From positions 55,830-119,829 of IMG/VR virus record IMGVR_UViG_3300045003_000080: 64,000 bases of DNA. The stretch is one strand, 5' to 3'. A program made the translations under genes and the position numbers. Each line of letters opens with the position of its first letter. Position 1 is the stretch's first letter. This document shows, in pieces, positions 62,493 to 64,000 of the stretch. Origin of the DNA: a virus. The notes beneath the pieces were generated by a model. It was given only the letters and a program-made list of their open reading frames with translations. It searched no databases and was not told the origin of the DNA.

Positions 62493-62577
62493 CTTCGCGT
62501 TGCGAAGGGTACGGATTCATCACTCGTCTCTGGAACGAACCCGATGGCCACCCCGTACCCACTCCGTTCTCGCGAAG
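62493..62577 (+). ncRNA. Y-RNA-like unit 1 (no tRNA-like module)
   Basis: CTTCGCG-TTGCG...CGTTCT-CGCGAAG closing helix; inner GGGTACGG/CCGTACCC stem. Confidence 0.7.
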
Positions 62578-62589
62578 ACCCCTTTCCGC

Positions 62590-62700
62590 CCCCGAGCTGC
62601 GCAGGTACATCGCCTACTTCAAAGGTTCGATTCCTTTCACCCCCACCCATGGGGGTGTGCCCCTGGCGGGCACCGGCGACACCGACTCGTTCTCTCGGGG
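62590..62700 (+). ncRNA. Y-RNA-like unit 2 (permuted tRNA-like module)
   Basis: CCCCGAG-CTGCG...CGTTCT-CTCGGGG; AAAGG-TTCGATT-CCTTT T-arm then closed acceptor-like stem. Confidence 0.8.
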
Positions 62701-62709
62701 CCAGTAGTA

Positions 62710-62852
62710 GCCCAGCTGCGACGACGACCAGTTCATCCCTTATAGATCGATAGGTTGCACGTTCGAATCGTGCCCCCGCTACCTGGCGGGGTAGCTCAAC
62801 GGCTAGAGCAATCGAACCGGTTTAAACCTGGTCGCCACCCTGTTCTCTGGGC
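62710..62852 (+). ncRNA. Y-RNA unit 3 (YrlA-like)
   Basis: GCCCAG-CTGCG...TGTTCT-CTGGGC. Order is T-arm (GCACG-TTCGAAT-CGTGC), looped acceptor stem, D-arm (TAGCTCAACGGCTAGAGCA). Confidence 0.88.
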
Positions 62853-62869
62853 GCCCACAACTTGATATT

Positions 62870-62970
62870 CCTCCAGTTGCGTTGTTCCGGGTTCCTTCAG
62901 TTGGGAAACTGCAGCTCTTGCGGTGCGGTTCGAGTCCGCGCACACCCGGGACGCCCGTGTTCTCTGGAGG
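62870..62970 (+). ncRNA. Y-RNA-like unit 4 (T-arm only)
   Basis: CCTCCAG-TTGCG...TGTTCT-CTGGAGG; GCGG-TTCGAGT-CCGC. Confidence 0.8.
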
Positions 62971-62984
62971 GCTTGTGATGTGGC

Positions 62985-63130
62985 GCGCCAGTTGCGACGG
63001 TGTCGGCTTACTTCATTCACCCTGATTAGGTGAAGACCCGGGTTCGAATCCCGGCCCCCCACTCGTGGGGGAGTGGTGTAGCGGCCTAGCACGTCGAAGA
63101 CAACAGCTGGTGCCATGTGTTCTCTGGCGC
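62985..63130 (+). ncRNA. Y-RNA unit 5 (YrlA-like, retains an anticodon-like arm)
   Basis: GCGCCAG-TTGCG...TGTTCT-CTGGCGC; TCACC-CTGATTA-GGTGA, CCGGG-TTCGAAT-CCCGG, CCCCCAC-TC-GTGGGGG, D-arm GTGTAGCGGCCTAGCAC. Confidence 0.88.
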
Positions 63131-63166
63131 ACCCCGTCACGCCCTCCCTCCTATAAGGGGGTTGTG

Positions 63167-64000
63167 ATGGCACGTTTTAACACAGCGCAGGCGCGTCCAC
63201 GCGTCGCCGGGCCCGTGACCACCACCGGGCCGGCCACCACCCACGAGGGTGCGCCCGCATACGCGCGCGACGCGAAGAGTGACCTGTTCCTGCTGGCCGT
63301 GACGAACATGGTCGGCGAAGATACCTTCTACGAGAAGGCGGACGACCGCGACCAGCGTTACGTCGATTTGATCCGGCAGGTCGCTGTCGACGACCCGGAA
63401 TGGGTGCTGGGGTTCGTCGGCTGGTTGCGCACGGAAGCGAACATGCGCTCCGCGTCGCTGGTGCTTGCTGCTGAGGCGGTGAAGGCCCGCCTGGACGCGA
63501 AGCAGCATGTGGACTTGCACACGCAGCGTTCGTACAACCGGAAGATCATCGACGCTGCGTGTCAGCGCCCCGACGAGCCAGCCGAGCTTCTGGCTTACTG
63601 GACGGGCCGCTACGGGCGGAACCTCCCCATGCCCGTCAAGCGGGGCCTACGCGACGCGGTCGAGCGGCTGCTGAATGAAAAGGCCCTTCTAAAGTATGAC
63701 AGCGACGGTAAGGCCGTCCGCATGGGTGACCTGATCGAACTGGTCCACCCCCGTGCCAAGCGCGCCTGGCAAGACGCCCTGTACAAGACGGCCATCGACC
63801 GGCGCCACAACCGCGACAACGAGATCCCGGACATGTTGCCGGCGGTGCGTGCACGCGACGAACTGAACACGGCCCCAGTCGCAGAGCGCCACGATCTCGT
63901 GCGCCGAGTCCTCGCCGGCGATGAGGAGGCGGCCGAGAAGCTGCGCCTCGCGATGGCCGGTCAGTGGGAGTGGCCTAAGAGCTGGCTCGGGATGAAGGAG
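63167..64000 (+). CDS. rsr: Ro60/TROVE-domain RNA-binding protein (3' partial; absent from ORF track)
   Basis: Hand translation MARFNTAQ...TTHEGAPAYARDAKSDLFLLAVTNMVGEDTFYE...LRTEANMRSAS...QRPDEPAELLAYW...PMPVKRG...KYD...DLIELVHP; RBS AAGGGGG. Confidence 0.92.
   Translation, partial: MARFNTAQARPRVAGPVTTTGPATTHEGAPAYARDAKSDLFLLAVTNMVGEDTFYEKADDRDQRYVDLIRQVAVDDPEWVLGFVGWLRTEANMRSASLVLAAEAVKARLDAKQHVDLHTQRSYNRKIIDAACQRPDEPAELLAYWTGRYGRNLPMPVKRGLRDAVERLLNEKALLKYDSDGKAVRMGDLIELVHPRAKRAWQDALYKTAIDRRHNRDNEIPDMLPAVRARDELNTAPVAERHDLVRRVLAGDEEAAEKLRLAMAGQWEWPKSWLGMKE

What the first reader, a model, noticed from the sequence alone, without database searches (positions are those of the whole stretch)
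62493..64000. Five tandem Y-RNA-like modules with a shared base and different heads, upstream of a phage Ro60
Seen: five consecutive hairpin domains share stem-YTGCG...YGTTCT-stem with fully compensatory closing stems (CTTCGCG/CGCGAAG, CCCCGAG/CTCGGGG, GCCCAG/CTGGGC, CCTCCAG/CTGGAGG, GCGCCAG/CTGGCGC). Heads differ: none, permuted tRNA-like (three), or T-arm only. A TROVE gene follows 36 nt later. Known: bacterial YrlA RNAs mimic tRNA in T-acceptor-D order, bind Ro60 through the basal helix and tether effectors; some mycobacteriophages encode them. Inference: a diversified five-RNA adaptor or decoy set, for example against host tRNA-cleaving defences.
Basis: partly seen in the sequence, partly recalled or inferred. 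Interest (0 to 1): 0.85.

Follow-up and report, generated by a model that had tools for sequence, protein, structure and literature searches.

The report
Five Y RNAs before phage Ro60
A soil phage of actinobacteria carries five small structured RNA genes in a row just before its Ro60 gene; they are Y RNAs, the known partners of that protein, and such rows are the rule in related bacteria and phages, so the find is sound but ordinary.

Summary
Five head-to-tail modules lie at window 62493-63130, ending 36 nt before a Ro60 start codon. Each has a different 6-7 bp closing stem around the same YUGCG...YGUUCU loop motif.

A covariance model built from related modules scores all five at 36-105 bits; the next best match in the region scores 4.8 bits. 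The closing stem covaries strongly across 76 modules.

The modules are Y RNAs of the YrlA/YrlB kind. M3 and M5 are full permuted tRNA mimics, M2 has a degenerate D arm, M4 has a T arm only, and M1 is a plain hairpin.

The arrangement is not special to this phage. Same-strand modules flank Ro60 in 80 of 80 actinobacterial genome loci, at 1-5 per locus. The related viral contigs and four named phages I searched carry 1-6. Rfam's YrlA model misses all of them at its threshold.

The decoy idea is untested and is already in print as a speculation. The phage has no RtcB, RNA ligase or CCA enzyme.

One oddity: this Ro60 is split into two overlapping ORFs, which I saw at this site in none of 111 relatives.

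This scan has found similar Y RNA rows on other genomes. Verdict: a new member of a known kind, of modest interest.

The parts
62463..62493 (+). GC-rich hairpin (about 13 bp, 7-nt loop) abutting module 1 and sharing C62493 with its closing stem. Role unknown: a 5' protective structure, or a terminator of the upstream gene.
   Evidence: Sequence; it forms in the MFE and in the centroid of the 731-nt fold.
62493..62577 (+). Module M1: closing stem CTTCGCG/CGCGAAG, UUGCGAAGG...CGUUCU base, a second stem, then a plain hairpin head with no T or D arm (YrlB-like short class).
   Evidence: MFE -31.5, z -3.0. R1 with filters off scores 43.1 bits, and M1 was not in the training set. It aligns with 15 short modules from 13 other loci.
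62590..62700 (+). Module M2: closing stem CCCCGAG/CTCGGGG; head is CUACUUC, then a T arm, then an 8-bp acceptor-like hairpin with loop CCCA, then a hairpin at the D position that is not D-arm-like.
   Evidence: z -3.9. R1 scores 50.4 bits, not in the training set. Acceptor-like hairpin. The D-position segment matches at most 12 of 20 bases of any phage tRNA.
62710..62852 (+). Module M3: closing stem GCCCAG/CTGGGC; a full YrlA-type head in the order V hairpin, T arm, 7-bp acceptor-like hairpin (loop ACCU), D arm.
   Evidence: Rfam YrlA 62724-62838, 43.5 bits, E = 3.7e-8, model 1-114. R1 scores 105.2 bits, but M3 is in the training set. Its D arm matches 19 of 21 bases of the phage's tRNA-Arg(acg) D arm.
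62870..62970 (+). Module M4: closing stem CCTCCAG/CTGGAGG; the head has a V-region hairpin or hairpins and a canonical T arm (UUCGAGU loop), with no acceptor-like hairpin and no D arm.
   Evidence: z -2.6. R1 scores 36.4 bits, not in the training set.
62985..63130 (+). Module M5: closing stem GCGCCAG/CTGGCGC; a full permuted tRNA-like head in the order long V hairpin with 7-nt loop, T arm, 6-bp acceptor-like hairpin, tRNA-Glu-type D arm.
   Evidence: R1 scores 79.8 bits, but M5 is in the training set. D arm 17 of 21 and T arm 18 of 21 identical to the phage's tRNA-Glu(ttc). Its own MFE does not show the base.
63131..63166 (+). 36-nt spacer with the ribosome-binding site (AAGGGGG) of Ro60. The scan found no terminator here, so co-transcription of the array and Ro60 is plausible.
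   Evidence: Sequence. The scan of 62200-63300 found no terminator-like or sigma-70-like site.
63167..64000 (+). N-terminal half of a split Ro60. The 280-aa ORF runs past the window end into the start of the circularly assembled record and stops at G000:C1:134-136. The C-terminal half (295 aa) is G000:C1:133-1020, outside the window, and overlaps by ATGA.
   Evidence: The N half matches phage phiLo Ro60 9KOP residues 20-201 at E = 2.2e-14. The C half matches residues 232-486 at E = 4.3e-8 and has Pfam TROVE (63.6 bits) and VWA_2 (28.6 bits).

Best explanation
The stretch is a polycistronic cluster of five Y RNA genes. Two or three are YrlA-type tRNA mimics, one has a T arm only, and one is a YrlB-like hairpin. 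They are probably transcribed together with the downstream Ro60 gene and cut into separate RNAs.

Each RNA is proposed to offer the same docking site: a variable 6-7 bp closing helix capped by an invariant G:C pair, then the conserved asymmetric loop 5'-YUGCG.../...YGUUCU-3'. The phage Ro60 would bind there, and the differing heads would decide what else each particle touches, such as tRNA-handling enzymes or PNPase.

Shown here: the modules exist, the closing helix covaries, the loop motif is conserved, the modules always accompany Ro60 on the same strand, and M3 is homologous to YrlA.

Inferred only: Ro60 binding, processing, co-transcription and any effector.

The cassette is the ordinary Ro60 (rsr) upstream arrangement of Actinomycetota, carried here by a temperate tailed phage.
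For: 1. Rfam YrlA matches M3 over the whole model at E = 3.7e-8. Actinobacterial loci give similar sub-threshold YrlA scores, 34.5-51.8 bits, within the places that my model R1 also hits.

2. R1 was built from 10 modules, two of them from the window. With filters off it scores the five modules at 105.2, 79.8, 50.4, 43.1 and 36.4 bits; the next best of 27 listed matches is 4.8 bits.

3. On 76 modules, 94.1% of cells pair against 62.1% in shuffles (0 of 500 shuffles reach it) and 36-48% with slid partners. The closing helix is 96.5% paired, and 6 of its 7 pairs change on both sides.

4. All 111 R1 matches in the window plus 32 further loci (31 related viral loci and the start of this phage's own record) are on the Ro60 strand. 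All 186 matches in 80 actinobacterial genome loci are upstream of Ro60 on its strand, and no locus lacks one.

5. Within a locus the nine loop-motif positions are 95.3% identical against 79.7% for shuffled locus labels (0 of 1000). The closing-stem strands are only 51% identical. That is what one shared protein partner per locus would give.

6. Published precedent: M. smegmatis YrlA and YrlB lie upstream of Rsr, come from one precursor and are immunoprecipitated with Rsr (Chen 2014, PMC4201824, passages). Thermus phage phiLo Ro60 binds two upstream Y-like RNAs (PMC12135203, passages).
Against: - No expression data. No RNA run holds this DNA, so nothing was learned from that search.
- No module reaches Rfam's gathering score: 43.5 against 69 for M3, and no YrlA match for the other four.
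- The published 5' motif GNCGAAN0-1G is matched only loosely. M1 has GCGAAGG; the others have GCGCAGG, GCGACGA, GCGUUGU and GCGACGG.
- The two predicted pairs inside the loop motif do not covary and are only 75% paired, so that part is a conserved sequence, not a shown helix.
- M5 alone does not fold into the base.
- The covariation counts rest on an alignment fitted to the model.
- The Ro60 here is split in two ORFs. None of 111 relatives is split at this site, and 108 are uninterrupted, so the protein partner could be defective.
- Shared motif variants within a locus could also come from concerted evolution or recent duplication.
Confidence: 0.8

Rival explanations
1. Counter-defence decoys. 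The tRNA-like heads act as competitive inhibitors or sinks for host toxins that attack tRNAs, so the array protects phage translation. Ro60 would mainly stabilise the decoys. This concerns function, and is compatible with the RNAs being Y RNAs.
For: - The heads differ. M3 resembles the phage's tRNA-Arg(acg) (D arm 19 of 21, T arm 16 of 21) and M5 its tRNA-Glu(ttc) (17 and 18 of 21).
- Acceptor-like hairpins of at least 7 bp occur in 41 of 64 modules, and some loops begin CCA after a discriminator-like base.
- A Ro60-like protein of coliphage Bas63 was reported to counter the ppl defence system (preprint PMC11482910, passage).
- Hughes 2020 suggests YrlA may inhibit an anticodon nuclease.
Against: - The modules have no anticodon arm; the Ro60-binding base takes its place.
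- The same arrays precede Ro60 in 80 of 80 bacterial genome loci, so diversity of heads is not a phage adaptation.
- No defence or anti-defence gene was identified beside the array.
- Nothing was tested experimentally.
Confidence: 0.12
2. Cis-acting leader. The modules stay part of the Ro60 mRNA 5' untranslated region and serve as Ro60 binding sites for autoregulation of its own translation or stability, not as free RNAs.
For: The last module ends 36 nt before the start codon, and the scan found no terminator between them. The 3' end of the 731-nt fold pairs the ribosome-binding region.
Against: In L026, L029 and L030 the modules lie downstream of the Ro60 match. M. smegmatis YrlA and YrlB accumulate as discrete processed RNAs (Chen 2014). 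Five different heads are not needed for autoregulation.
Confidence: 0.06
3. Decaying tRNA genes or tRNA-derived repeats with no link to Ro60.
For: T and D arms closely resemble the phage's own tRNAs. ARAGORN and GenBank annotators call some related modules tRNAs.
Against: - Arm order is permuted, and the base motif with its covarying closing stem is conserved across 76 modules.
- M1 has no tRNA element yet keeps the base.
- ARAGORN at default settings and Rfam tRNA find nothing in the array.
- Modules accompany Ro60 in all 80 bacterial loci.
Confidence: 0.02

Closest known systems
Mycobacterium smegmatis YrlA and YrlB (Chen et al. 2014, RNA 20:1715, PMC4201824)
   Same: Same phylum of host. 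Y RNAs sit directly upstream of the Ro60 (Rsr) gene on the same strand and are made from one precursor. One is a permuted tRNA mimic with a 7-bp acceptor-like stem, cleaved by RNase P and given CCA. The other is a hairpin with a possible T arm. Both are bound by Rsr.
   Different: Two RNAs are described there and five lie here. Here both strands of the basal loop are conserved, whereas the paper recognised only the 5' strand. Binding and processing are shown there and only inferred here. The carrier here is a phage, and its Ro60 is split.
Salmonella Typhimurium YrlA / Rfam RF02553
   Same: V, T arm, acceptor-like stem and D arm in the same order, inside a basal helix near a Ro60 gene. M3 aligns to the whole Rfam model.
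   Different: M3 scores 43.5 bits against a gathering score of 69. There is no rtcBA repair operon and no RtcR here. The 5' motif differs from GNCGAAN0-1G.
Phage Y RNAs: YrlA-related sequences in 22 bacteriophages including mycobacteriophage ET08 (Chen 2014); Yrl1 and Yrl2 of Thermus phage phiLo (PMC12135203)
   Same: Phage-encoded Ro60 with Y-like RNAs just upstream. The phiLo Ro60 is the best solved-structure match of both halves of this protein.
   Different: One or two RNAs per phage are named in the text I could read. I could not see the supplementary tables of Chen 2014, which may list more. The phiLo RNAs were picked by a CGAA motif and are not described as tRNA mimics in the passages I read.
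Metazoan Y RNAs
   Same: A conserved bulged helix formed by the 5' and 3' ends is the Ro60 site, and a variable internal domain sets the partners. The 5' strand GGUCCGA quoted in Chen 2014 resembles the GGUGCGAAGG found in many related modules.
   Different: Metazoan Y RNAs have no tRNA-like domain, are separate polymerase III genes, and are not arrayed before the Ro60 gene.

Membership tests
Bacterial Y RNA, YrlA type (Rfam RF02553; Chen 2014) | Encoded within about 4 kb of a Ro60 orthologue on the same strand | tested here: met
   The modules end 36 to about 590 nt upstream of the Ro60 ATG at 63167, on the same strand.
Bacterial Y RNA, YrlA type (Rfam RF02553; Chen 2014) | tRNA-like domain in the order (V) - T arm - acceptor-like stem - D arm | tested here: met
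   Met for M3 and M5. M2 has the T arm and acceptor-like stem but a non-D hairpin. M4 has a T arm only and M1 has none, so those are YrlB-like rather than YrlA.
Bacterial Y RNA, YrlA type (Rfam RF02553; Chen 2014) | Score at or above Rfam's gathering threshold (69 bits) | tested here: not met
   M3 scores 43.5 bits, and the other four modules have no YrlA match. No YrlA match reaches the threshold in 20 related loci. Nine actinobacterial loci give 34.5-51.8 bits. The threshold excludes this whole actinobacterial subgroup.
Bacterial Y RNA, YrlA type (Rfam RF02553; Chen 2014) | 5' motif GNCGAAN0-1G near the 5' end | tested here: inconclusive
   M1 has UGCGAAGG, which contains CGAA. M2-M5 have GCGCAGG, GCGACGA, GCGUUGU and GCGACGG. 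Across the 83 rows, which include 8 non-module rows at the bottom of the list, the consensus is G-N-U-G-C-G-N-A-G.
Bacterial Y RNA, YrlA type (Rfam RF02553; Chen 2014) | Conserved YUAY at the start of the V region | tested here: inconclusive
   CUAC in M2 and UUAC in M5. M1 and M3 have UUCAUC and M4 has UUCCUUC at the aligned place. UACUUC is near-invariant in relatives.
Bacterial Y RNA (any type) | Basal helix formed by the 5' and 3' ends, supported by covariation | tested here: met
   Closing helix 96.5% paired, with 6 of 7 pairs changed on both sides. 0 of 500 shuffles reach the whole-structure pairing or covariation score.
Bacterial Y RNA (any type) | Physically bound by Ro60; stable discrete RNA in vivo | not testable with these tools
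   No RNA data were available for this DNA. RIP-seq or Northern blots are needed.
Ro60 / TROVE protein | TROVE (HEAT-repeat ring) plus von Willebrand A domain | tested here: met
   The C half has TROVE at 63.6 bits (cut-off 23) and VWA_2 at 28.6 bits (cut-off 27). The N half has no Pfam hit but matches 9KOP residues 20-201 at E = 2.2e-14. The halves are collinear with full-length relatives.
Ro60 / TROVE protein | Single polypeptide of about 500-550 residues | tested here: not met
   Two ORFs of 280 and 295 aa overlap by ATGA. 28 of 31 viral relatives have an ORF of at least 489 aa from the match start. 80 of 80 bacterial relatives have at least 450 aa, median 526.

The most novel reading that the evidence does not exclude
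The five heads are a deliberately diversified panel of tRNA look-alikes. M3 is Arg-like and M5 is of a rare Glu-like type, seen in 5 of 262 modules. The acceptor-like hairpins have C-rich loops that could become CCA ends after RNase P cleavage. Held on a two-piece phage Ro60, the panel would soak up or misdirect host toxins and enzymes that act on the tRNA body or acceptor end. The phage, or its lysogen, would thereby be shielded from tRNA-directed immunity.
Probability: 0.1. Interest if true: 0.75.

Novelty: new member of a known kind. Interest (0 to 1): 0.3.

Why it matters
The practical value is in annotation. Rows of one to six Y RNA genes accompany Ro60 throughout actinobacteria and their phages. 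Rfam's YrlA threshold misses all of them. In GenBank phage records parts of them are labelled as tRNA genes or small hypothetical proteins.

Cultured phages with the same arrays give a workable system to ask what several Y RNAs per Ro60 are for. Streptomyces phage GiJojo has five modules and BRock has four.

The finding does not open a new kind of biology. Phage Ro60, phage Y RNAs, tRNA mimicry and multi-Y-RNA loci are all in print.

Tried and rejected
- A near-identity search of GenBank phages with the locus found no match.
- A sigma-70 promoter and intrinsic terminator scan of 62200-63300 found 0 sites of either kind. The transcription start is therefore unknown.
- A very relaxed base-motif scan was uninformative: 2052 plus-strand against 1829 minus-strand hits.
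- A medium-relaxed scan still had a heavy background, for example 255 plus against 92 minus hits in the 80 bacterial loci, and it missed M3. I used the covariance model for counts instead.
- Public sequencing runs: no RNA holder listed. Two soil-metagenome DNA runs hold the stretch and may be its source. I did not lay reads.
- RtcB, PolyA_pol/CCA-adding and RNA_ligase families: 0 matches each in the phage genome.
- ARAGORN on the array found nothing at default or at '-ps'. At 80% threshold it made five weak calls, one on the opposite strand, which I treat as noise.
- The review PMC10870794 is not held.
- Literature searches for phage loci with more than two named Y RNAs found none.
- I considered attP or an integration site, CRISPR-like repeats and plain tRNA pseudogenes. 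I rejected them because the permuted heads and the covarying base always travel with Ro60, including in lytic-looking named phages.
- I did not run a complex prediction for the two Ro60 halves, because a pass would mostly reflect likeness to solved Ro60 structures.
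Full report
**What is there.** The window is the right-hand 64 kb of a 119,829-bp virus record whose ends repeat 127 bp. I take the repeat to be a circular-assembly overlap; this rests on recall, not on a call. The record is a tailed phage. It has a tape-measure protein, tail proteins and an endolysin, nine tRNA genes at 43940-45998 and 65% G+C.

Between an XRE/DUF5753 regulator gene (61509-62396) and a Ro60 gene (ATG 63167) lie five head-to-tail modules. M1 is 62493-62577, M2 62590-62700, M3 62710-62852, M4 62870-62970 and M5 62985-63130. 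So are the YTGCG and (Y)GTTCT elements and the 36-nt gap to the start codon.

**More than chance.** A strict scan for stem-N-TGCG...GTTCT-stem over the whole genome, both strands, gave six hits. Five are the modules. Random genomes gave a mean of 0.87 and at most 3. Four of five modules fold on their own into the proposed base. M5 does not, and its z-score is weak.

**Comparative evidence.** The N-terminal Ro60 half retrieved 31 related viral loci.
- I aligned ten tRNA-like modules, two of them from the window. RNAalifold predicted 31 pairs, 23 with compensatory changes.
- The model R1 built from that alignment found 111 matches at E <= 1 in the window plus 32 further loci: the 31 viral loci and the start of this record. 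All were on the Ro60 strand.
- With filters off on 62380-63200 the five modules score 105.2, 79.8, 50.4, 43.1 and 36.4 bits, and the next best match scores 4.8. M1, M2 and M4 were not used to build the model.
- I counted pairs on 76 matches at E <= 1e-5, three of which are partial hits on true tRNA genes with gaps at the base. 94.1% of cells pair against 62.1% in shuffles (0 of 500) and 36-48% for slid partners.
- The closing helix is 96.5% paired and six of its seven pairs change on both sides. The seventh is an invariant G:C.
- The two pairs predicted inside the loop motif do not covary. That motif is therefore a conserved sequence whose fold is open.
- The alignment was fitted to the model, which favours the structure. 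The slid-partner control and the conserved flanks limit that worry.

**What the modules are.** Rfam's YrlA model aligns end to end with M3 at 43.5 bits and E = 3.7e-8, below its gathering score of 69.

By fold and model alignment:
- M3 and M5 have the YrlA order: V hairpin, T arm, acceptor-like hairpin, D arm.
- M2 has a T arm and an 8-bp acceptor-like hairpin, but an unrelated hairpin where the D arm should be.
- M4 has a T arm only.
- M1 has a plain hairpin.

M1 aligns with 15 short modules from 13 other loci. These classes match the published YrlA/YrlB pair of M. smegmatis. There both RNAs lie upstream of Rsr, come from one precursor and co-precipitate with Rsr, and YrlA is cut by RNase P and receives CCA (Chen 2014, passages and sections 5 and 6).

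Acceptor-like hairpins of at least 7 bp occur in 41 of the 64 modules that have such a segment. Several loops begin CCA after a discriminator-like base. The window's M2 and M3 loops are CCCA and ACCU.

**How common the arrangement is.**
- At E <= 1e-5, R1 finds 1-6 modules per viral locus: six in L021 and four each in L015, L024, L030 and L031. Looser hits and the strict scan add more, for example a fifth in L015 and a fifth and sixth in L024.
- Among named cultured phages, GiJojo has five modules, BRock four, and VanLee and Rabbitrun two each.
- In the 80 best genome loci, all Actinomycetota, R1 finds 186 modules. All are upstream of Ro60 on its strand. The count per locus is 1 in 17 loci, 2 in 33, 3 in 18, 4 in 11 and 5 in 1, and no locus has none. 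I did not check whether some of these loci are prophages.
- R1 under-counts headless modules.
- No YrlA match reaches Rfam's threshold in 20 related loci. Nine actinobacterial loci give 34.5-51.8 bits.

The window's array is therefore a large but ordinary member of a widespread, under-annotated cassette. Earlier notes of this scan report rows of three to six Y RNAs beside bacterial rsr genes on other genomes. My own count agrees.

**Docking site.** The loop motif differs between loci (GTGCG...GATCT, GTGCC...AATCT, AAGCG...GTACT and others). Within a locus it is nearly uniform, at 95.3% identity against 79.7% for shuffled labels (0 of 1000). The closing-stem strands in the same locus are only 51% identical. 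One protein partner per locus would give this pattern, and so would concerted evolution. The 5' strand in many relatives, GGUGCGAAGG, resembles the GGUCCGA contacted by Xenopus Ro60, as quoted in Chen 2014.

**Function.** Ro60 binding, processing and effector recruitment are all inferred. The phage has no RtcB, RNA ligase or CCA enzyme.

The neighbours are a GntR-like and an XRE-like regulator, a C5 DNA methylase, a PAPS-reductase-like protein and a SLOG protein. Beyond Ro60 lies a large serine recombinase on the other strand. The cassette thus sits in the accessory and lysogeny end of the genome.

The decoy idea remains possible but is not new: Hughes 2020 suggests YrlA might inhibit an anticodon nuclease. 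Indirect support from phages is limited to two reports. Bas63 gp130, a Ro60-like protein, is reported to counter the ppl system (preprint). The phiLo Ro60-Yrl complex binds host PNPase in vitro.

One detail fits diversification. M3's D and T arms are closest to the phage's tRNA-Arg(acg), at 19 and 16 of 21 bases. M5's are closest to tRNA-Glu(ttc), at 17 and 18 of 21. Glu-type D loops occur in only 5 of 262 modules.

**The split Ro60.** The ORF from 63167 ends after 280 codons at C1:134-136. A 295-codon ORF starts at C1:133, so the two overlap by ATGA, and AAGGAG lies 6 nt before that ATG. The halves are collinear with full-length relatives. About 32 extra bases at the junction duplicate a few codons (and my count).

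The N half matches phiLo Ro60 residues 20-201 and the C half residues 232-486. The junction lies wholly inside contiguous sequence at the record start.

28 of 31 viral relatives are uninterrupted. L016 and L026 are interrupted elsewhere, and L033 is cut by its contig end. All 80 bacterial relatives are uninterrupted. Whether the two-piece protein works is open. The coupled stop-start with its own ribosome-binding site argues for a working split rather than decay.

**Verdict.** The Y RNA reading is supported and the decoy reading is untested. This is a new member of a known kind.

**Limits.** There are no expression data. I could not see the supplements of Chen 2014, which may already list several Y RNAs per phage. 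The statement that such arrays are undescribed for phages rests only on searches.

Noticed in passing
window 63167-64000 and G000:C1:1-1020: The Ro60 gene is split into ORFs of 280 and 295 aa with an ATGA stop-start overlap and an AAGGAG ribosome-binding site 6 nt before the second ATG. None of 111 relatives is split at this site: 28 of 31 viral and 80 of 80 bacterial relatives are uninterrupted, two viral ones are interrupted elsewhere and one is cut by its contig end.
   Followed up: partly
L034 (Streptomyces phage GiJojo) 2269-2343; L035 (Gordonia phage VanLee) 2204-2275; L036 (Gordonia phage Rabbitrun) 1921-2278: GenBank annotations place tRNA-Arg(cct) and tRNA-Arg(tct) genes inside Y RNA modules (2264-2410 and 2203-2340). 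In Rabbitrun the small hypothetical CDSs 93 and 94 lie over modules. Rfam tRNA at its gathering score does not support the GiJojo call. ARAGORN makes similar calls inside modules in nine of the 31 viral loci; L021 and L022 show the same call at the same position.
   Followed up: partly
L026 4925-5355, L029 4843-5053, L030 4824-6611: In three related viral contigs the Y RNA modules lie downstream of the Ro60 gene instead of upstream, in L026 and L030 next to true tRNA genes.
   Followed up: no
L006 168-2659, L016 259-2764, L034, L037: In several relatives the Ro60/Y RNA cassette is embedded in a large tRNA gene cluster (about 20 tRNAs in L006 and L016; GiJojo and BRock too). In L021 a true tRNA-Pro (1754-1826) sits between two modules. 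In the window the tRNA cluster is 16 kb away.
   Followed up: no
window 62396-62422 and 62463-62493: Two GC-rich hairpins flank a short AT-richer stretch between the upstream gene's stop codon and module 1. The first looks like a terminator without a U tract. The second abuts M1's closing stem. The consensus scan found no promoter.
   Followed up: no
window 63074-63094 (M5 D arm): M5 carries a tRNA-Glu-type D arm, 17 of 21 bases identical to the phage's tRNA-Glu(ttc), instead of the usual YrlA D arm. This type was seen in only 5 of 262 modules (window, L005, L058, L059, L062).
   Followed up: partly
window 53326-58803: The accessory genes upstream are a transposase-like protein (53326-54261), a SLOG/YAcAr protein (55878-56258), a PAPS-reductase-like protein (56802-57743) and a C5 cytosine DNA methylase (57688-58803). 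A large serine recombinase lies at G000:C1:1786-3396 on the minus strand.
   Followed up: no
L025 and L027 against other loci (loop motif): Loci with 5' AAGCG have 3' GTACT, whereas 5' UGCG goes with GAUCU or GUUCU. This could be a compensatory U:A to A:U change between loop positions, or mere lineage history.
   Followed up: no
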